From Elusimicrobia bacterium UBA5214 (lineage in GTDB: Bacteria; Elusimicrobiota; UBA5214): a stretch of 64,000 nt of DNA. Below, in pieces: positions 27,094 through 33,658 of the stretch. The notes under the pieces were generated by a model. The model ran no database searches, was not told the DNA's origin, and saw only the letters and a program-made list of their open reading frames with translations. The DNA lies in the NCBI GenBank assembly GCA_002412545.1, contig DHVG01000002.1, positions 130,095 to 194,094 of the forward strand, written 5' to 3'. The translations under genes and the position numbers were made by a program. Each line of letters starts with the position of its first letter. Within the stretch, counting starts at the first letter, position 1.

Positions 27094-28377
27094 TTATTCT
27101 CTTATCTGTCCTTTTCCAAAAACAATATATTTGGTTGAAGTAAGTTCATTAAGACCCATCGTCCCCCGGGCATGTAATTTTTGGGTAGAGATACCAATTT
27201 CCGAGCCAAACCCGAAGACACCACCGTCATGCAGACGGGTAGAAGCATTGTGAAATACCGCACTCGAGTCAACTTCCTGCAAAAATTTTTTTGCGGTTTC
27301 TTTATTTTCGGTAACGATTGTTTCACTATGTCCGGAACCATACTTATTGATATGCTCAATTGCTTCCTCTACCGAATCAACAATTTTTATTGCTAAAATC
27401 AAAGTGAGATATTCTCGATACCAATCGTCCTCAGTGGCTGGTTTAACCTCAGGAATAATTTGTTGTGTCCTTGTGCAACCACGGAGTTCTACGCCGGCTT
27501 TTTTATATTCCTCAATCATTAAGGGTAAGAATTTTTTGGCAATTTCTTGATGCACAAGTAATTTCTCCATTGCATTGCATACACCCGGACGCTGAACCTT
27601 AGCATTATAACAGATTTTAATTGCCATCTCTATATTTGCTTCCTTATCTACATAAGTGTGACAGTTACCTTTACCATGAGCAAGAACCGGGACGGTCGCT
27701 TTCTCCCGAATTGCCCGAATCATTTCTTCACCACCACGGGGAATGACTAAATCAATATACTGGTCTAATTTAATTAACTCAGAAATTGCCTCCCGTTCAG
27801 TAGTTTCAATGAACTCAATACTTCCATCTGGAATACCATTTGCATAAGCAGTTTGTCCAATAATTTTTGCTAAGATTGTATTTGTCTTGATTGCTTCCGA
27901 ACCACCACGCAAAATTACCGCATTACCCGATTTCAAACATAGACCACTCGCTTCTATGGTAACATTGGGGCGGGATTCGTAAATCATTAAAATTACACCC
28001 AGCGGGACCGATACTTTCTGGATTTTTAATCCATTCGGTTCGGTTTTGTTTACCTTGAGCCCGCCGAAAGGTCTAGTCCATTCAGCAATAATTTTACCTA
28101 CCGGGTCAGACAAATCAACAATTTCTTTTAGCCCCTTTACCATTTCACTAATTCTTTTTTCATTTAAAGTAAGACGGTCAATCAGTGCTGAAGAAAGATT
28201 TACCTTTTTAGCATTATTCAAATCAACTTGGTTAGCAGAGAGAATTTTTGTTTTTTCTTTCTTTAAAGCATCCGCTATTGCTAAAAGTGCCTTGTTCTTT
28301 ATTTCAGTACTTAAATTTGCTAATTTCCGACAAGCACTTTTTGCCCTTTCTGCTTTTTTAATCAGTTCTTCTTTCAT
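27094..28377 (-). CDS. proA: Gamma-glutamyl phosphate reductase
   Basis: Aldehyde dehydrogenase fold with Cys in ...GQ.CNA.E..LVH motif; ...IPRGG...I and GHSE.I.T. Confidence 0.9.
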   Translation of the reverse strand: MKEELIKKAERAKSACRKLANLSTEIKNKALLAIADALKKEKTKILSANQVDLNNAKKVNLSSALIDRLTLNEKRISEMVKGLKEIVDLSDPVGKIIAEWTRPFGGLKVNKTEPNGLKIQKVSVPLGVILMIYESRPNVTIEASGLCLKSGNAVILRGGSEAIKTNTILAKIIGQTAYANGIPDGSIEFIETTEREAISELIKLDQYIDLVIPRGGEEMIRAIREKATVPVLAHGKGNCHTYVDKEANIEMAIKICYNAKVQRPGVCNAMEKLLVHQEIAKKFLPLMIEEYKKAGVELRGCTRTQQIIPEVKPATEDDWYREYLTLILAIKIVDSVEEAIEHINKYGSGHSETIVTENKETAKKFLQEVDSSAVFHNASTRLHDGGVFGFGSEIGISTQKLHARGTMGLNELTSTKYIVFGKGQIRE

Positions 28378-28508
28378 TTTTCTCCTCTATCCGAAAACCA
28401 ATTTGACGCTGAAATTGTTACTTCTTTTTCGTTTAAGGTCACAACTTATGACCTTATATCCAGGAATAAAAAATTGTTTTCTTTTTAATTATCTCTGTGC
28501 TGATTTTA

Positions 28509-29063
28509 TCAATCTACACGAAAACCTATTTTCTTTTCAGGTTGCTTCGGTGGTGCCAGTAATTTATTTATAAGTTCAAAGACGACTTTAAATTGACGGT
28601 CATATTTCTTTTCCATTTCTTCAATTTTTCTTTTCAAATCTTCGTGTGTTGATAATATCCGTCTCAATTTTGCAAAAGTTCTCATAATCTGGATGTTCAC
28701 ATAGATAGCTCTTTTGCTATTTAATACACTGGAAAGCATAGCCACACCCTGCTCAGTAAAGGCGTAAGGGAGATATCCTCCTAAACTCCTTTTTGATGGT
28801 ATCACATTTTGTGATACCAAGATTTCTGCTTCTTCCTTAGTAAGTTTTAACATAAAGTCTTCCGGAAAACGGTCTTTATTTCTTTTTACCTGTTGTCTTA
28901 GAGCGATAGGTTTTACTCCGTAGAGTTCTGCAATGTGCCGGTCTAAAATTACATTTAATCCTTTTATTAAAAAGATTTTATTTTCTATTCTTTCTTGTGG
29001 AACTATTTCTTGAATTGTGCTTTCATCTTTTTTCATTTTTTTCACCTGACAATGGTTCGGCAT
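28509..29063 (-). CDS. ORF6N-domain protein (KilA-N/Bro-N-related, antirepressor-like)
   Basis: IRGQ-like ...ILDRHIAELYGV...LRQQVKRNKDRFPEDFMLKLTKEE...GGY.PYAFTEQGVAMLSSVL.S.RAI.VNIQIMRTF matches the ORF6N consensus almost residue-for-residue. Confidence 0.75.
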   Translation of the reverse strand: MPNHCQVKKMKKDESTIQEIVPQERIENKIFLIKGLNVILDRHIAELYGVKPIALRQQVKRNKDRFPEDFMLKLTKEEAEILVSQNVIPSKRSLGGYLPYAFTEQGVAMLSSVLNSKRAIYVNIQIMRTFAKLRRILSTHEDLKRKIEEMEKKYDRQFKVVFELINKLLAPPKQPEKKIGFRVD

Positions 29064-29263
29064 TGCTCACCACGGTAAAGGGATTGAACCGTTTTTTAAT
29101 TCCTCCGTCCCAATTCTCCCTGTTCAATGTTTATTCCGTAAAGCGTAGAAGCGTAGCCGGCCCTTAAGGGTCGGCTACCTCTTTTCCGTCACAGTTGTCA
29201 AGTAGCGTCCCCTTTTCGTTAATTCCCTCTGTCCCAATTTCCTATTTTTTGATAGTCTAAAAG

Positions 29264-29791
29264 TCATTCCAATTGTTCATATTTATCTGTCCATTCCATG
29301 GGTACGGGCGGCATTTTTGCTTGTTTGTCTATAACATCAATAACTTTTTCCGTATCCTCCACAAAATTTCTAGCATTGTCTAGAGTACATAATTTTTCCC
29401 ATCTTGTTAAAGGTGAATTCTCAGAAGTGCTTTCTATTTCTTCAGTTCTCGAGTGTACTAATTTGTTTCTCAGTTTAAATATCAAATCGAATGATTGGAA
29501 TGGTCGCTTACTGTTGTCAACTTGAAAATGTAATTTTTCACAGATAATTTTAAGTTTTGCTTTTGGAGACAATGACCTCTCTAAGTCAGCCCAACATTTG
29601 AAATTTAGATTGCCTAAATGATTCAAATAACTTTCTAATGTAAAAGCACAAAAAAGACAAGTAGCCATAATTTTATATGTTTGCCCGGCCATATCATTTG
29701 ACAATTCCAAAAAATGTTTTGACGCTGTTAATAACCATTTGTATGTATAAATAATTCTGCTGGTTCTACAAGTTCTTTTCATTATCTCCAT
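29264..29791 (-). CDS. Hypothetical protein with a HEPN-like Rx4H motif (candidate Abi/toxin RNase)
   Basis: FKLRNKLVHSRTEE contains R-N-x3-H at about aa 105 of 175. The gene is AT-rich, sits in the island and is followed by a small TM gene. Confidence 0.3.
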   Translation of the reverse strand: MEIMKRTCRTSRIIYTYKWLLTASKHFLELSNDMAGQTYKIMATCLFCAFTLESYLNHLGNLNFKCWADLERSLSPKAKLKIICEKLHFQVDNSKRPFQSFDLIFKLRNKLVHSRTEEIESTSENSPLTRWEKLCTLDNARNFVEDTEKVIDVIDKQAKMPPVPMEWTDKYEQLE

Positions 29792-29841
29792 AGTTTTCCC
29801 CTAAAATCATTTTTTCTACTTCTTGTTTGCTTGACAATTTT

Positions 29842-30057
29842 TTAATTCCCTCTGATCTGTAATATTTGGATTATAATAAAAATAATTTGGATAATACCAA
29901 GAAAAATCATGGCTCCTGATAAATAACTGCTTTTACAATTGAATTTATCTATTGATTCTCGTAAGCGTATAATTAATTCTGCTAAAGATTTTTGACTTTG
30001 TTCTAAACTTCCCCATGTAGTTCCTTTAATTATTTTACTATCACTTTCATTGTTCAT
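29842..30057 (-). CDS. Small single-pass membrane protein, hypothetical
   Basis: RBS gggagggg upstream and a C-terminal hydrophobic helix AMIFLGIIQIIFIIIQILQI. It starts 51 nt downstream of the HEPN-like gene. Confidence 0.35.
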   Translation of the reverse strand: MNNESDSKIIKGTTWGSLEQSQKSLAELIIRLRESIDKFNCKSSYLSGAMIFLGIIQIIFIIIQILQIRGN

Positions 30058-30225
30058 AGTTTACCCCTCCCGAAATTATATTTTCAACTTTTTGTTTAGC
30101 TTCGGATAAAAGTTCTTTTGTTTTTATGCGTGCTTCGTGTGATTGGCGAAAACTGGCAACAGAGTCAACAAGTGTCCTTTTTCCCGAAAAACTTGCTTAT
30201 AAATAGATATATATAACAATCCCAT

Positions 30226-30564
30226 TTATGAGTATCTTTCTTCTTGTCCAGTATGCAATTCAGGAGAATAAAGCTCGTATGTTGATAAATGGTGTTCATA
30301 CCTCACTAATTTTTCTTTTTCCAGTTGATACAATATATAGTCAAGTTCGTCAGTCGGTATATCCGAGAATGCCTGGGCTATCTCCTCACGAGAAAACACT
30401 CTGGTTCCCGGTACTTTTTGTTGTTCTTTCCTCAGCCAATTGAGAACGCTTAGTTTTCTTTTTTCCTTTCTTCCTACAAACCATTTCCATAATAACTTGT
30501 AAAGTAGATTGATAATTTTTCCTTTCACTTTTCTATTTTTCCACTTTCGGATAAATGCCGTCAA
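30226..30564 (-). CDS. Small basic hypothetical protein (possible wHTH regulator) overlapping the R-M gene start
   Basis: Lys/Arg-rich N-terminus and C-terminal SREEIAQAFSDIPTDELDYILYQLEKEKLV. It overlaps the start of 30533-33658 by 32 nt. Confidence 0.3.
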   Translation of the reverse strand: MTAFIRKWKNRKVKGKIINLLYKLLWKWFVGRKEKRKLSVLNWLRKEQQKVPGTRVFSREEIAQAFSDIPTDELDYILYQLEKEKLVRYEHHLSTYELYSPELHTGQEERYS

Positions 30565-33500
30565 TTAGTTTCTGGACTTCAATTGTCTTTTGAAGAGCGG
30601 TGACAATCTTGCAATAAGGTTTTATGTCGTTAAGTGTAGTTCCTATCTTGTCCTTCAGCCATTTATCACAAACTTGATAACCTCCGATTTGGTATTTCCA
30701 GATTTCTGGTTTTATGCCTTCAAAATATTGTTCATTATTTATATAAACTCGTCCTTTTTCATATTTTACTTTTTCAATTTTGTAATTTCCTTTACCTTGA
30801 AATTTAGCAACCGGTGGGTCGAGTTCCGCTGATTTAAGTAAATGTAAGTCAACCAGCCTTTTTCCATATTCAGCCATTTTACTGAAAAGTTTGTAATCTT
30901 TCGTTAAAGGAATTCTCGGGAAATCCATCTTTAGAAACTCGGCGTATCTTGTTCGGTAGATATTTGAGTAAAGAATAGCATAAACATAAAAGAAGATTTG
31001 TTCCGGAGACGGTATTTTTTTAAACTCTTTGGTTAATTGTTCGACTATTTCCGGAGAGAGGTTCGGTTTTTTTGCTCCGTAATCTGCTTGTGGTTCAAAG
31101 AGCATTATAACACTGCCTAAAGACCGTTTTTTAGGATTATCCTTTTTTTCTTGATATAGGTAAAGAGGGAAAAGGTAATTTATATCAAGGGCAGTAATAG
31201 ATGTTGCACCTGCAACAACTTTATCTGTAACAAAGGCATATCTCCAATCTTCTACACTTCTTGACCGTCTAATGGTAATTAAACCTAAATTTTCTCCTGC
31301 CAGCATATGGTACATAATTTCTGGACGGGGCATACAATGAAAACCACGGGATTTGCCGGTGTAATAGGTATATCTTATATCAAAAGGTCGGTATAAAATT
31401 GGTACTATTTTCTTTTTGTCTAATCCACTTTCTTCTAAATCCTTCTGAGCCAGTTCAACTTTCCAATCTCTTGCGTCTTTACCAAGGCTGTAAGCCTGCC
31501 TTGCCAATTCCGGATCAAGTTTTGAAAAGTTTAAAATAGTTTGCCAAACTTCTTCCGGTTTCCATTTGATAGTCAAATTGTCCCTCGCCGTAACTATCCC
31601 TACACTGTTAGCAAGAAAGATGTCAGTTATCTTTGGATATGAGTAGTATAACTTGAAAAGTTTTCTTTCCGTTGGAATAAAACGATAAAAAAACTCCGAT
31701 TTTAGTGATATTTTTTGCCATTTAGTTGTTTTTATATCATTTTTCAAAAGCCAATCATACTTTTTTTCCTGCAATCCCCAAAGGTCTGAATGATGAACTT
31801 CGCACTCTCTCTTTTCATCTTTCTTTTTTATGAAAAGGGCAATCGCTACTCCCTGTCGAATATCAAAGACATTTCCATCTTTAGACCCGTCAGGACATTT
31901 CCCTTTTTCTTTCGTAATATTGCCATGCAAATCTAAAATATAAATTTCATTGAAACTATTCATCAGGGATTGTCGCATTCCTCTAAAAGTTGGATTATCC
32001 AGATAACTATGATTGGTAATAAATCCTAAAATTCCTTCACCTGCTTGGTCAATTTTCCACTGGGCAAAACGAATGAATTTTACATAATCATCTTGTAGCC
32101 ATTTAGGATTTTTTTCGCCAAGCGGTTTACCATCCACCTGATAGTAAACTTTAATTTCTTTTGAAATCCATTCACCTACATTATAGGAATGTCCCGAATA
32201 AGGCGGATTGCCAAAAATAACTAAAATTGGTGTTTCCTTTTTTACCTTGCCTGCCAAATGAGATTCCTCAGAAAGGGAAACCATACCCGGAAGTTCGGTC
32301 TGGGCGAGTTCTTCCATTTCCAAAGTATTGGTTAGATAGAGTTTAAACCGGTCGTCATCCTTGAGTTCGTAGCCGAGTTCTTCTAAGAGAAAAGACATTT
32401 TGAGGTGTCCTACTGCGTAAGGTGCCATCATCAATTCAAAAGCATAAAAATTTTTGAGGATATGTTCTCTGATAAGATTTTCTTTTCCACCTTCTCCATA
32501 TTTGTGAACAAATTCATTTACTACTAATTTAGATGCTTCTGCTAAAAAAGTAAGTGTTCCTGCCGCAGGGTCCAAAACGGTAACTAATTCGCTTGCAAAT
32601 CCATCCTTTCTATTAAAATGTTCCTTCAAAATACGATGCAAAGAACGAACGATATAAGATACGACGGGTTCTGGTGTGTAATATACGCCCCTCTTTTCTC
32701 TTGTTTGTGGGTCATATTCAGCCAAGAAGGTTTCATAAAAGTGGACAATTGGGTCTTTACCTTTGCCTTCATGAAAATATTTGTGAAGGATATTTTTTAC
32801 ATCAGTAACTGCTAATACTTCTGAAATATCATCAATAATCCATTCCATTTGTTGGGAAGGTTTACCCAGTGAAATAAAATGAAAAACATCCCTTAGAATA
32901 CCTATAGTTGGTGGAATCTTATCGTAGGCAAGTTTTCTATTAAACTCGTTTTCTGAACGAGTTCGGGCAGCAAAAAGTCCGTAGGTAATGGTTTGGGAAT
33001 AAAGGTCAGCAAAATCCTCTTTTGTAAGACCACTTATTAGATATTTTCTGAATGCTTCATAAAATCCTAAAATAAATCCTTTTCCTATTTCTTCTTCTTC
33101 TTTTAGTTCTTGGGCAACGACTTCGTCTCTAAGGAAACGTGTCCTATTTGCTAATTCAATTGCTAGTGTTTTAGCATCATAAACCTTTGGCAAAGAAAAA
33201 GAAAAGAATTTCTCAAGCAGTTTAACAAAATCCTGTTCTTTTTCAACAGGTGGCACTGTTTTAAGTTTATGAACAATAAAGGGTCTACCAATAAGAACTT
33301 TATCTATTAAAGTACCGTTGTGATAACGTCTGAATTCAAAAAAGTTAGTTAATATAAGATTGGGGAAGGTATGCCGATAGCGTTTTAACTGTTCCGTTTC
33401 TTCTGTCTGGTCTAAATCCTCGTTCTTTGGTTCCTTGGCTTCAATATACCCAACGATATGCTGACTTCCATCCCAGACCCTGAAGTCAGGATTACCGGCT

Positions 33501-33658
33501 TCAGTTTTCTTTGGTAGAGTGGTAATATGGATATTTTTTTTGCCGACCGATTCTATATATTCCTGTAGTAATCCTTCAAGGATTGAGTAGTAACTCTCTT
33601 CCCTTGCGTCTCCATGTTGGGCAACTCCAAAGATTTTTTCTAAATATGCTTTCAACAT
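30533..33658 (-). CDS. MmeI-like Type IIL/IIG restriction-modification enzyme: N-terminal PD-(D/E)xK nuclease, N6-adenine MTase and a C-terminal TRD
   Basis: DFRVWDGSQHIVGYIEAKEP is a D-x13-EAK nuclease motif at the N-terminus. MTase motif I is VLDPAAGTLTFL and motif IV is IFGNPPYSG (NPPY). Total length is 1041 aa. Confidence 0.75.
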   Translation of the reverse strand: MLKAYLEKIFGVAQHGDAREESYYSILEGLLQEYIESVGKKNIHITTLPKKTEAGNPDFRVWDGSQHIVGYIEAKEPKNEDLDQTEETEQLKRYRHTFPNLILTNFFEFRRYHNGTLIDKVLIGRPFIVHKLKTVPPVEKEQDFVKLLEKFFSFSLPKVYDAKTLAIELANRTRFLRDEVVAQELKEEEEIGKGFILGFYEAFRKYLISGLTKEDFADLYSQTITYGLFAARTRSENEFNRKLAYDKIPPTIGILRDVFHFISLGKPSQQMEWIIDDISEVLAVTDVKNILHKYFHEGKGKDPIVHFYETFLAEYDPQTREKRGVYYTPEPVVSYIVRSLHRILKEHFNRKDGFASELVTVLDPAAGTLTFLAEASKLVVNEFVHKYGEGGKENLIREHILKNFYAFELMMAPYAVGHLKMSFLLEELGYELKDDDRFKLYLTNTLEMEELAQTELPGMVSLSEESHLAGKVKKETPILVIFGNPPYSGHSYNVGEWISKEIKVYYQVDGKPLGEKNPKWLQDDYVKFIRFAQWKIDQAGEGILGFITNHSYLDNPTFRGMRQSLMNSFNEIYILDLHGNITKEKGKCPDGSKDGNVFDIRQGVAIALFIKKKDEKRECEVHHSDLWGLQEKKYDWLLKNDIKTTKWQKISLKSEFFYRFIPTERKLFKLYYSYPKITDIFLANSVGIVTARDNLTIKWKPEEVWQTILNFSKLDPELARQAYSLGKDARDWKVELAQKDLEESGLDKKKIVPILYRPFDIRYTYYTGKSRGFHCMPRPEIMYHMLAGENLGLITIRRSRSVEDWRYAFVTDKVVAGATSITALDINYLFPLYLYQEKKDNPKKRSLGSVIMLFEPQADYGAKKPNLSPEIVEQLTKEFKKIPSPEQIFFYVYAILYSNIYRTRYAEFLKMDFPRIPLTKDYKLFSKMAEYGKRLVDLHLLKSAELDPPVAKFQGKGNYKIEKVKYEKGRVYINNEQYFEGIKPEIWKYQIGGYQVCDKWLKDKIGTTLNDIKPYCKIVTALQKTIEVQKLIDGIYPKVEK

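What the first reader, a model, noticed from the sequence alone, without database searches (positions are those of the whole stretch)
29264..30057. HEPN-like protein plus small membrane protein as a two-gene module
The 175-aa protein carries FKLRNKLVHSRTEE, which fits the R-[NHQ]-x3-H HEPN RNase motif in the second half of a domain about 120 aa long. It is followed 51 nt later by a 71-aa protein with one C-terminal TM helix that has its own strong RBS. Pairings of a HEPN nuclease with a small membrane or immunity partner are typical of Abi and toxin-antitoxin-like defence modules. This pairing does not match a system I can name.
Basis: inference. Interest (0 to 1): 0.6.

Follow-up and report, generated by a model that had tools for sequence, protein, structure and literature searches.

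The report
Stand-alone HEPN RNase beside orphan membrane gene
The 175-residue protein very probably has the HEPN ribonuclease fold and belongs to a large unnamed family, but that family travels alone, and the small membrane protein beside it is an orphan seen only in this genome, so there is no evidence for a conserved two-gene defence module.

Summary
Both ORFs exist at the stated coordinates, but on the minus strand. The 71-aa membrane gene is therefore upstream of the 175-aa gene, separated by a 50-nt gap.

**HEPN call: supported.**
- R108-N-x3-H113 is invariant in 65 homologues and present in 154 of 157 family representatives.
- An AlphaFold2 model (pLDDT 86) has the canonical HEPN topology: the motif at the end of helix 3, conserved E53 in helix 2, and an insert between helices 2 and 3.
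- Its best PDB fold matches are almost all HEPN proteins, but with weak Foldseek E-values.
- The family is large (about 2,300 clusters at 50% identity) and almost always about 190 aa and single-domain.
- It is named "hypothetical" wherever a name was found and falls below threshold for every Pfam, NCBIfam and PADLOC model.

**Two-gene module: not supported.**
- The 71-aa protein has no relative in a 5.8-billion-protein database, in metagenome DNA, or in 70 homologue loci.
- Neighbours of the HEPN gene differ from locus to locus, and no partner family recurs.

**Best reading.** This is a stand-alone, probably latent HEPN RNase in a five-gene variable island, alongside a Type IIG restriction-modification enzyme and an ORF6N protein (PADLOC candidate PDC-S05). 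That fits the known pattern of HEPN genes next to R-M systems. It is a new member of a known kind, of modest interest.

The parts
29264..29791 (-). 175-aa stand-alone HEPN-superfamily protein, a predicted metal-independent RNase
   Evidence: ORF. Twelve homologues in the protein database and 66 genome loci. AF2 model with pLDDT 86 and pTM 0.82. Top Foldseek PDB matches are HEPN proteins. Weak, sub-threshold Pfam hits only to HEPN families.
29453..29470 (-). Codons for R108-N-K-L-V-H113, the Rx4H catalytic motif at the C-terminal end of helix 3
   Evidence: Invariant R and H in 12 and in 65 aligned homologues. R[polar]x3H is present in 154 of 157 family representatives. The position at the end of helix 98-113 matches the canonical HEPN description.
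29618..29635 (-). Codons for E53-S-Y-L-N57-H58 (family motif EAYLNH) in helix 2, the predicted auxiliary active-site residues
   Evidence: E53 and N57 are invariant and H58 is at least 90% conserved in 65 sequences. The canonical HEPN has a conserved acidic residue in helix 2 close to the Rx4-6H motif.
29797..29802 (-). Shine-Dalgarno-like AGGGGA 5 nt upstream of the HEPN ATG
   Evidence: Read from the sequence. The same initiation context, AGGGG[A/T]AAACTATG, precedes the 71-aa gene (repeat D14).
29842..30057 (-). 71-aa orphan ORF with a hydrophilic N-terminal 45 residues and one C-terminal TM helix (tail-anchored type). It is upstream of the HEPN gene.
   Evidence: ORF. TM segment. Gene-like codon usage. 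Called by JGI and Logan. No homologue anywhere. No family hit.
29854..29922 (-). Codons for the predicted TM helix (about residues 46-68, LSGAMIFLGIIQIIFIIIQILQI)
   Evidence: Kyte-Doolittle window scan and the translation.
30064..30071 (-). Strong Shine-Dalgarno GGGAGGGG 6 nt upstream of the 71-aa ATG
   Evidence: Read from the sequence.
29153..29178 (.). GC-rich 11-bp-stem palindromic hairpin 86 nt downstream of the HEPN stop codon. It is a possible transcript end that separates the HEPN gene from the ORF6N gene.
   Evidence: Inverted repeat I4. Terminator-like site, with the T tail scored on the + strand only.
30226..30528 (-). 100-aa orphan ORF (112 aa from an upstream TTG) directly after the R-M gene. 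Context only.
   Evidence: ORF. JGI call. Only itself in the protein database. Gene-like codon usage. Low-confidence helical model, pLDDT 65.
30533..33658 (-). 1041-aa Type IIG restriction-modification enzyme (N6-adenine methylase plus Type ISP-like C-terminal specificity domain). Context only.
   Evidence: Pfam Type_ISP_C 3.6e-86 and N6_Mtase 4.9e-10. PADLOC REase_MTase_IIG 2.1e-256.
28509..29063 (-). 184-aa ORF6N-domain protein (PADLOC defence candidate PDC-S05). Context only.
   Evidence: Pfam ORF6N 8.3e-31. PADLOC PDC-S05 1.3e-54. PHROG anti-repressor family 5.3e-24.

Best explanation
The 175-aa gene encodes a minimal, stand-alone member of the HEPN superfamily. It belongs to a large, unnamed family of about 190-aa single-domain proteins whose nearest named relatives are the RiboL-PSP, MAE_28990 and Cthe_2314 HEPN families.

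By analogy with characterised HEPN enzymes, I infer that it is a metal-independent RNase. It would dimerise so that R108/H113, assisted by E53/N57/H58 from helix 2, line a composite cleft, and it would cleave RNA leaving a 2',3'-cyclic phosphate.

The family has no conserved partner gene, so its activity must be self-limited. It could be latent until triggered, as in single-gene HEPN Abi proteins and Tha, or it could have narrow substrate specificity.

In this genome (an Elusimicrobia MAG) the gene lies in a five-gene variable block between pdxA and proA. The order is Type IIG R-M enzyme, 100-aa orphan, 71-aa orphan membrane protein, HEPN, ORF6N/PDC-S05. I read it as a back-up RNA-targeting defence or abortive-infection gene next to an R-M system.

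The 71-aa tail-anchored membrane protein is a real-looking but lineage-specific gene. It is not a defining partner of the HEPN family.

Shown: the ORFs, motif conservation, fold, family size, absence of a conserved partner, and the local gene content. Inferred: RNase activity, dimerisation, latency and the defence role.
For: Motif and family:
- R108 and H113 are invariant in 12 and in 65 homologues. E53, N57, F50 and K79 are also invariant.
- 154 of 157 best family representatives keep R[polar]x3H.
- A profile search finds 2,328 clusters at E<=1e-3. Among the 157 family sequences held, median length is 192 aa and only 3 exceed 250 aa.

Fold:
- The AF2 model has pLDDT 86 and pTM 0.82.
- Its helices are 16-30 and 37-63, then an insert (67-86), then 98-113 ending in Rx4H, then 130-158. 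This matches the published HEPN topology.
- 17 of the 19 best Foldseek PDB hits are HEPN proteins, including 2hsb, HepT/MntA 6m6u and 7bxo, 5yep, 8xeh, 7ae6 and sacsin 3o10. Probabilities reach 1.0 and target-normalised TM is 0.55-0.64.
- The only Pfam hits in the HEPN clan's range, for the query or for family members, are HEPN families; the query also has one comparably weak, probably chance, hit to FlaA. The sporadic PADLOC hits are mostly to HEPN-containing models.

No conserved partner:
- The neighbour census of 63 non-redundant loci finds no recurring family.
- The 71-aa, 100-aa and ORF6N proteins are absent from all 70 homologue loci.
- The 71-aa protein has no relative in 5.8 billion proteins or in metagenome DNA.

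Local context:
- Type IIG R-M enzyme and PDC-S05 candidate.
- HEPN families embedded in or next to R-M operons are a described pattern (PMC3710099).
- Single-gene HEPN defence exists, as shown for Tha (PMC11087260).
Against: - No biochemical or genetic data exist for any member of this family.
- Family-wide context is mostly housekeeping genes (FtsK, hisB, trpE, luciferase-like oxidoreductase, DnaJ-TPR), and only a small minority of neighbours look like R-M or defence genes.
- The family is nearly absent from plasmids (1 hit) and absent from the phage collection. That is unusual for a mobile defence gene.
- Dimerisation and juxtaposition of Arg and His were not modelled.
- The short 50-nt gap, the same strand and near-identical initiation contexts leave open co-expression, and so a functional link, with the 71-aa gene.
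Confidence: 0.6

Rival explanations
1. The 71-aa membrane protein and the HEPN protein form a lineage-specific two-gene abortive-infection or toxin-antitoxin-like module. Possible arrangements are that the membrane protein tethers or inhibits the RNase, or acts as a second membrane-disrupting effector, as in the HEPN-TM system reported from phage-inducible chromosomal islands.
For: - The genes share a strand, are 50 nt apart, and have near-identical strong initiation contexts.
- A GC-rich hairpin follows the HEPN gene and may close the transcription unit.
- The 71-aa ORF looks coding.
- The location is an island with an R-M enzyme and a defence candidate.
- A HEPN-plus-TM defence system is known from the literature.
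Against: - The 71-aa protein is an orphan with no relative in 5.8 billion proteins, in metagenome DNA or in 70 homologue loci.
- No partner family recurs across 63 loci, and only 2 of 63 have any small TM-containing ORF upstream on the same strand.
- Even the closest relatives (36-43% identity) have unrelated upstream genes: a DUF4352 protein, trypsin, a 60-aa soluble protein, and a DUF4160/DUF2442-like pair.
- The family plainly functions without such a partner.
- No PADLOC model matches the 71-aa protein.
Confidence: 0.12
2. The family is a housekeeping or stress-related RNA-processing RNase rather than a conflict or defence gene. On this view its position next to an R-M enzyme is incidental.
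For: - Most neighbours in 63 loci are core metabolic or cell-division genes, often tightly packed with the HEPN gene (gaps of -4 to +13 nt next to FtsK, hisB and trpE).
- Synteny is retained among close relatives, such as Nostoc L039/L042/L059 and L006/L009.
- The family is almost absent from plasmids and absent from phages.
- No antitoxin-like partner was found.
- Some HEPN families are known to have RNA-processing roles (PMC3710099).
Against: - The distribution is patchy, spanning many phyla at 25-40% identity.
- There is no conserved neighbourhood even within a family such as Comamonadaceae (L037, L044, L049 and L050 are not syntenic). That looks like horizontal transfer rather than a core function.
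- An 8.4-kb segment carrying the gene is 99.98% identical between two different genera.
- In this window the gene lies in a slightly GC-poor five-gene block holding two orphans, an R-M enzyme and a defence candidate.
Confidence: 0.22
3. The Rx4H match is coincidental, or the ORFs are not real genes.
For: Every individual database match of the query to a named HEPN family is below the curated threshold, for example PF18735 at 15.1 bits against a cut-off of 28.4.
Against: - The motif is invariant across 65 homologues.
- The model is confident and has HEPN topology.
- Thousands of homologous clusters exist.
- Codon usage is gene-like for both ORFs.
Confidence: 0.02

Closest known systems
HEPN superfamily (Anantharaman et al. 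2013, PMC3710099), especially the RiboL-PSP-HEPN (PF18735), MAE_28990 (PF18737) and Cthe_2314 (PF18730) families. RiboL-PSP-HEPN is described as distantly related to AbiD/AbiF.
   Same: Four-helix core with an insert between helices 2 and 3. R-N-x3-H at the end of helix 3. A conserved acidic residue in helix 2. These are the only Pfam families that family members hit (12, 9 and 3 of 65). Location near an R-M gene matches a pattern described for many HEPN families.
   Different: All hits are below Pfam gathering scores. There is no fusion to endoRNase L-PSP and no ParB operon. The family has its own signature (AF.LEAYLNH ... SPK.KL ... RP.QSF ... FRN.LAHGKTE ... W) and predicted terminal beta-strands. 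It has no dedicated Pfam or NCBIfam model and is annotated 'hypothetical protein' in every case checked.
Single-gene HEPN abortive-infection and defence proteins (AbiD/AbiF/AbiJ/AbiU2 of Lactococcus; Tha of S. aureus prophages, PMC11087260)
   Same: A HEPN RNase domain that works without a dedicated antitoxin gene. Rx4H is essential in Tha. The proteins are presumed latent until triggered.
   Different: Those proteins are larger (Tha is 301 aa, with an N-terminal sensing region). This protein is little more than the HEPN domain. There is no Pfam Abi_2 hit. The family was not found on phages. No trigger is known.
HEPN-TM defence system of phage-inducible chromosomal islands (Fillol-Salom et al. 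2022, as cited in PMC11087260 and PMC12948488; details are from my own recollection)
   Different: Here the pairing is not conserved, the TM protein is an orphan, and the locus is chromosomal between pdxA and proA with no satellite or phage genes in the 16 kb read around it. Sequence relationship to the PICI system could not be tested because no reference sequences were at hand.
HepT/MntA (HEPN-MNT) type VII toxin-antitoxin systems (PDB 5yep, 6m6u, 7bxo, 7ae6)
   Same: Best structural matches. A small HEPN RNase of comparable core size with Rx4H.
   Different: No MNT nucleotidyltransferase gene lies next to it here. Sequence identity is 10-16% only. The family has no conserved antitoxin.

Membership tests
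HEPN superfamily | [quoted passage not shown] | tested here: met
   The AF2 model (pLDDT 86) has helices 16-30, 37-63, an insert at 67-86, then 98-113 and 130-158. Top Foldseek PDB hits are HEPN proteins, with probability up to 1.0 and target-normalised TM 0.55-0.64, but weak E-values of 0.02-0.5. Topology description from PMC3710099.
HEPN superfamily | Rx4-6H motif with a polar residue after R, at the end of helix 3, conserved in the family | tested here: met
   R108-N109-x3-H113 lies at the end of helix 98-113. R and H are invariant in 65 sequences. 154 of 157 representatives keep the motif, with N or D after R in 145.
HEPN superfamily | Conserved acidic residue in helix 2 near the motif | tested here: met
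   E53 is invariant and lies within helix 37-63.
HEPN superfamily | Metal-independent RNase activity dependent on R and H | not testable with these tools
   Needs biochemistry or a toxicity assay with R108A and H113A mutants.
Pfam PF18735 RiboL-PSP-HEPN | Score at or above the curated gathering threshold (28.4 bits) | tested here: not met
   The query scores 15.1 bits, E 0.022. Only 12 of 65 family members match at E<=0.01, best 1.4e-5.
Pfam PF18735 RiboL-PSP-HEPN | Fusion to endoRNase L-PSP or an operon with ParB (Table 1 of PMC3710099) | tested here: not met
   Family proteins are about 190-aa single-domain. Neither L-PSP nor ParB is among the 25 listed (most frequent) neighbour Pfam families, of 101 found, nor in the window island.
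HEPN-MNT (HepT/MntA) toxin-antitoxin | Adjacent minimal nucleotidyltransferase antitoxin gene | tested here: not met
   Window neighbours are a 71-aa TM orphan and an ORF6N protein. No nucleotidyltransferase family is among the 25 listed (most frequent) neighbour families, of 101 found.
HEPN-TM two-component defence (PICI-borne) | Conserved pairing of the HEPN gene with a TM-protein gene | tested here: not met
   There are no homologues of the 71-aa protein. Only 2 of 63 loci have a small TM-containing ORF upstream on the same strand.
HEPN-TM two-component defence (PICI-borne) | Sequence homology to the published HEPN and TM components | not testable with these tools
   No reference sequences were at hand. 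PADLOC v2 gave no relevant hit for either protein, but I do not know whether that library holds a model for this system.
HEPN-TM two-component defence (PICI-borne) | Carried on a phage satellite or mobile island | tested here: not met
   The block sits between pdxA and proA. No Pfam family typical of integrases, primases or packaging proteins is on record for any of the 14 genes called in the 16 kb around it.
Dazbog (DzbB) | Full-length match to DzbB with a DzbA partner | tested here: not met
   There is only a local 58-position hit (profile positions 260-317 of 341), E 2.2e-4, covering the Rx4H region. One of 65 family members hits it. No neighbour matches DzbA.
Type II toxin-antitoxin pair (generic) | Conserved bicistronic pairing of toxin with a cognate small antitoxin | tested here: not met
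   The upstream small gene also encodes a membrane protein with no detectable DNA-binding domain.

The most novel reading that the evidence does not exclude
This roughly 2,300-cluster family of about 190-aa HEPN-only proteins could be an undescribed class of self-contained, single-gene latent RNases with no antitoxin and no sensor domain, used for abortive infection. In this Elusimicrobia genome it could have recruited a de novo tail-anchored membrane protein as a local regulator or anchor, a convergent analogue of the PICI HEPN-TM system.
Probability: 0.1. Interest if true: 0.5.

Novelty: new member of a known kind. Interest (0 to 1): 0.27.

Why it matters
- The result gives a fold and a predicted activity to a large protein family that is labelled "hypothetical" in every case checked and that current Pfam, NCBIfam and PADLOC models miss.
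- It adds one more example of a HEPN gene parked beside a restriction-modification enzyme.
- A minimal HEPN RNase with no partner gene raises a question about self-control: how does a cell tolerate such an enzyme with neither an antitoxin nor a sensor domain?
- It also corrects a tempting but unsupported call of a new two-gene defence system. The small membrane gene is an orphan, so it should not be used as a signature for mining.

Tried and rejected
**Partner searches that found nothing**
- The 71-aa protein was searched in the 5.8-billion-protein database, in metagenome DNA, by tblastn against 70 homologue loci, and in Pfam, NCBIfam, PHROGs and PADLOC. Only two weak TM-driven PHROG hits appeared.
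- The 100-aa ORF was searched for homologues and found only itself. Its single-sequence AF2 model is low confidence (pLDDT 65), so I ran no fold search on it.
- All-vs-all BLAST clustering of neighbours in 63 loci looked for a recurring partner. Only syntenic close relatives clustered.
- A metagenome scan for close relatives of the HEPN protein gave one locus at 36% identity with unrelated neighbours.

**Ideas considered and dropped**
- The variable upstream genes (trypsin, DUF4352, PD40 lipoprotein) might share a membrane or secreted theme with the 71-aa protein. I rejected this after the wider census showed FtsK, hisB, trpE and other unrelated genes.
- The motif AGAGGGAATTAA recurs at gene boundaries and might mark cassette junctions. 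Window-wide it occurs at chance level: 14 matches against 12.5 expected.

**Other searches with no result**
- Rfam on 28300-30700 gave no meaningful hit.
- A profile search of PDB sequences gave no significant hit.
- The BFVD viral fold search was uninformative.

**Could not be run**
Full report
**1. What is at the coordinates**

- The ORF listing finds a 175-aa ORF at 29264..29791 and a 71-aa ORF at 29842..30057, both on the minus strand.
- In the direction of transcription the 71-aa gene therefore comes first. The 175-aa gene follows after a 50-nt gap (29792..29841).
- The peptide FKLRNKLVHSRTEE is present. R108 and H113 are encoded at 29453..29470.
- Both genes have purine-rich ribosome-binding sites in nearly the same context, AGGGG[A/T]AAACTATG. 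For the 71-aa gene it extends to GGGAGGGG.
- The 71-aa product has 45 hydrophilic residues followed by one hydrophobic helix (about residues 46-68) and only three further residues, so it is of the tail-anchored type.
- Its codon usage scores 0.22 log2 units per codon in frame. The mean is 0.31 for true-gene windows of the same size and -0.31 for off-frame windows, and none of the off-frame windows reaches 0.22.
- Two independent public annotations of the same genome call both genes.

**2. Is the 175-aa protein a HEPN protein?**

*Direct family scans*
- These give only sub-threshold hits, and apart from one equally weak, probably chance, hit to FlaA (E 0.071) all are to HEPN families: PF18735 RiboL-PSP-HEPN (E 0.022), PF18730 Cthe_2314 (E 0.059), and a local hit to PADLOC DzbB (2.2e-4).
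- NCBIfam gives no hit and PHROGs only one insignificant hit (E 0.28).

*Homologues*
- The 5.8-billion-protein database holds 12 relatives at no more than 43% identity apart from the protein itself.
- A scan of GTDB species genomes returned 66 loci across Chloroflexota, Desulfobacterota, Cyanobacteria, Burkholderiales, Planctomycetota, Bacteroidales, Patescibacteria and others.
- A profile search of 1.84 billion cluster representatives found 2,328 clusters at E<=1e-3, of which 421 are at E<=1e-30.

*Conservation*
- In alignments of 12 and of 65 sequences, R108 and H113 are invariant. So are F50, E53, N57 and K79. H58, W67, P97 and W131 are at least 90% conserved.
- Of 157 family sequences, 154 keep R[polar]x3H, and the residue after R is N or D in 145.

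*Structure*
- An AlphaFold2 model built on the 12-sequence alignment has mean pLDDT 86 and pTM 0.82.
- Its helices are 16-30 and 37-63, a helical insert at 67-86, helix 98-113 ending in the Rx4H motif, and helices 130-134 and 137-158, read here as one kinked last helix.
- This matches the description in the HEPN survey: the motif at the end of helix 3, the conserved acidic residue in helix 2, an insert between helices 2 and 3, and a kinked helix 4 (PMC3710099).
- Foldseek against the PDB puts HEPN proteins in 17 of the first 19 places. These include AF_0298 (2hsb), the HepT toxins of HepT/MntA (6m6u, 7bxo, 6m6w), SO_3166 (5yep), 8xeh, 4nqf, 7ae6, the sacsin HEPN domain (3o10), 1wol and 2q00.
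- Probabilities are up to 1.0 and target-normalised TM-scores are 0.55-0.64, although E-values are weak, with a best of 0.023.

I regard HEPN superfamily membership as established to the extent that computation allows. RNase activity is inferred.

**3. What kind of HEPN family?**

- Members are almost all single-domain proteins, with a median of 192 aa. Only 3 of 157 exceed 250 aa, and one of those has an N-terminal zinc ribbon.
- Scanned one by one against Pfam, 12 of 65 touch PF18735, 9 touch PF18737 (MAE_28990) and 3 touch PF18730. The best E-value is 1.4e-5, and no other family is hit.
- Against PADLOC there are only sporadic weak hits, mostly to HEPN-containing models (CARF_HEPN, RTasHEPN, DzbB).
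- Public names, where any exist, are "hypothetical protein".
- The family is therefore a distinct, unnamed branch of the HEPN superfamily. [quoted passage not shown]

**4. Is there a two-gene module?**

*The 71-aa protein has no relatives*
- It has no relative in the protein database other than itself.
- It has none in a DNA-level scan of 241 million metagenome records.
- A tblastn at E<=10 against all 70 homologue loci returned only noise-level matches for the 71-aa and 100-aa proteins (best E 2.2) and none for the ORF6N protein.

*The neighbours of the HEPN gene vary*
- I made crude gene calls in 63 non-redundant homologue loci and tabulated the flanking genes. They differ in size, strand and spacing everywhere.
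- All-vs-all BLAST clustering of every ORF within 3.5 kb found no family shared by more than four loci. The shared ones come from syntenic close relatives: Nostoc L039/L042/L059, L006/L009 and L008/L063.
- Pfam assignment of 123 immediate neighbours gives 101 different families. The commonest, Uma2, occurs only 6 times.
- Even the tightly abutting neighbours are housekeeping or unrelated genes: FtsK, imidazoleglycerol-phosphate dehydratase, anthranilate synthase, a luciferase-like oxidoreductase and a DnaJ-TPR protein.
- The closest relatives of the window protein (36-43% identity) sit behind a trypsin-like protease, a DUF4352 membrane protein, a PD40 lipoprotein, a soluble 60-aa protein, or a pair of ORFs that I recognise by eye as DUF4160- and DUF2442-like.
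- Only 2 of 63 loci have any small TM-containing ORF upstream on the same strand.

What remains in its favour is purely local: same strand, a short gap, matching initiation signals, and a GC-rich hairpin (29153-29178) after the HEPN gene that could close a two-gene transcript.

**5. Local context**

- The same genome is present as a 325-kb JGI contig, and NCBI names it an Elusimicrobia MAG.
- The gene order is mfd, surA-like, pdxA, then the five-gene block, then proA, nadD, LCP, rsfS and argS.
- The block holds a 1041-aa Type IIG R-M enzyme, a 100-aa orphan, the 71-aa orphan, the HEPN gene and a 184-aa ORF6N protein.
- It is slightly GC-poorer (0.30-0.37) than its flanks.
- It contains two orphans, a complete single-polypeptide R-M enzyme (PADLOC REase_MTase_IIG, 2.1e-256) and an ORF6N protein that matches the PADLOC defence candidate PDC-S05 (1.3e-54).
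- HEPN genes embedded in or beside R-M operons are a recurrent theme in the 2013 survey, which interprets them as a second, RNA-directed line of defence.
- This local context is the main argument for a defence role of this particular copy.

**6. Mechanism I commit to**

- I infer that the protein dimerises like other HEPN domains and uses R108/H113, assisted by E53/N57/H58, for metal-independent RNA cleavage.
- Because the family has no conserved inhibitor gene, I infer that activity is kept in check within the protein itself. It is either latent until an infection-associated trigger appears, as shown for the single-gene HEPN system Tha (PMC11087260), or narrowly substrate-specific.
- Here it would back up the adjacent R-M enzyme.
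- My confidence is about 0.9 for the HEPN fold, about 0.8 for the absence of a conserved partner, and about 0.45 for a defence role. Overall confidence in the combined statement is 0.6.

**7. Rivals**

- **A lineage-specific HEPN plus membrane-protein module, analogous to the PICI HEPN-TM system.** It is not excluded but is unsupported. I give it 0.12.
- **A housekeeping or stress RNase.** This is a serious rival at 0.22. Family-wide neighbours are mostly core genes. The family is nearly absent from plasmids (1 hit in 72,556 records) and absent from 50,697 phage records. Against it stand the patchy cross-phylum distribution, the lack of synteny within Comamonadaceae, and an 8.4-kb segment 99.98% identical between Comamonas faecalis and Oryzisolibacter propanilivorax.
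- **A chance motif or non-genes.** This is effectively refuted.

**8. Novelty and score**

- The protein is a new, unannotated member, and really a distinct family, of a very well-known superfamily. It sits in a context (next to R-M) that is already described for HEPN proteins.
- The supposed new two-gene system does not hold up.
- A specialist would not be surprised. The useful outputs are an annotation for a large "hypothetical" family and the open question of how a bare HEPN domain is kept harmless.
- Interest is 0.27. Novelty class: new member of a known kind.

Noticed in passing
window 29095-29239 (between the HEPN stop codon and the ORF6N start codon): Two 21-nt direct repeats, TT(T)AATTCCYTCYGTCCCAATT at 29095-29115 and 29219-29239, flank a GC-rich 26-nt palindromic hairpin at 29153-29178. 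The degenerate pattern (up to 3 mismatches allowed) matches the 64-kb window only at these two sites, against 0.03 expected by chance. No Rfam family matches. It could be a terminator with flanking repeats or a small inserted element.
   Followed up: partly
window 30226-30564 (minus strand): A 100-aa ORF (112 aa from an upstream TTG that overlaps the end of the R-M gene) is also an orphan, with only itself in the protein database. Its codon usage is gene-like. The single-sequence AF2 model is helical but low confidence (pLDDT 65). The island therefore contains two consecutive orphan genes.
   Followed up: partly
window 30533-33658 (minus strand): A 1041-aa single-polypeptide Type IIG R-M enzyme with N6_Mtase and Type_ISP_C domains (PADLOC REase_MTase_IIG, 2.1e-256). 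Its N-terminus reads ...NPDFRVWDGSQHIVGYIEAKEP..., which looks to me like a D...ExK nuclease motif of the MmeI type. This is read by eye and was not tested.
   Followed up: no
window 28509-29063 (minus strand): An ORF6N-domain protein matches the PADLOC defence candidate PDC-S05 almost end to end (1.3e-54) and PHROG anti-repressor families. It lies directly downstream of the HEPN gene, but no ORF6N homologue occurs in any of the 70 HEPN-homologue loci.
   Followed up: partly
P0013 (the 71-aa protein), JGI annotation: JGI names this 71-aa membrane ORF 'FMN-dependent NADH-azoreductase'. That name cannot be right for a 71-residue protein with no family hit, so it is a spurious annotation.
   Followed up: no
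L044 and L045, whole loci (8,462 nt each): The segment carrying the HEPN homologue is 99.98% identical between Comamonas faecalis and Oryzisolibacter propanilivorax, which implies very recent transfer on a larger mobile element. There the HEPN gene overlaps by 4 nt with an upstream DUF6367 gene.
   Followed up: partly
L002 4578-6618; L003; L074; L075: In one subgroup of relatives (P0003 and P0006) the HEPN gene always follows, by 13-18 nt, a 469-470-aa DUF4352 protein with one TM helix. This pairing is conserved only within that close subgroup.
   Followed up: no
P0083 (324 aa) and P0076 (279 aa), family representatives: These are rare multi-domain members. P0083 has an N-terminal CxxC...CxxC zinc-ribbon region fused to the HEPN domain, and P0076 has a 95-aa N-terminal extension. 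They could hint at how some members are regulated.
   Followed up: no
L076 1323-1857: The metagenomic relative is preceded by two small ORFs that look by eye like a DUF2442/DUF4160 pair, a toxin-antitoxin-like pairing. They were not scanned against any family library.
   Followed up: no
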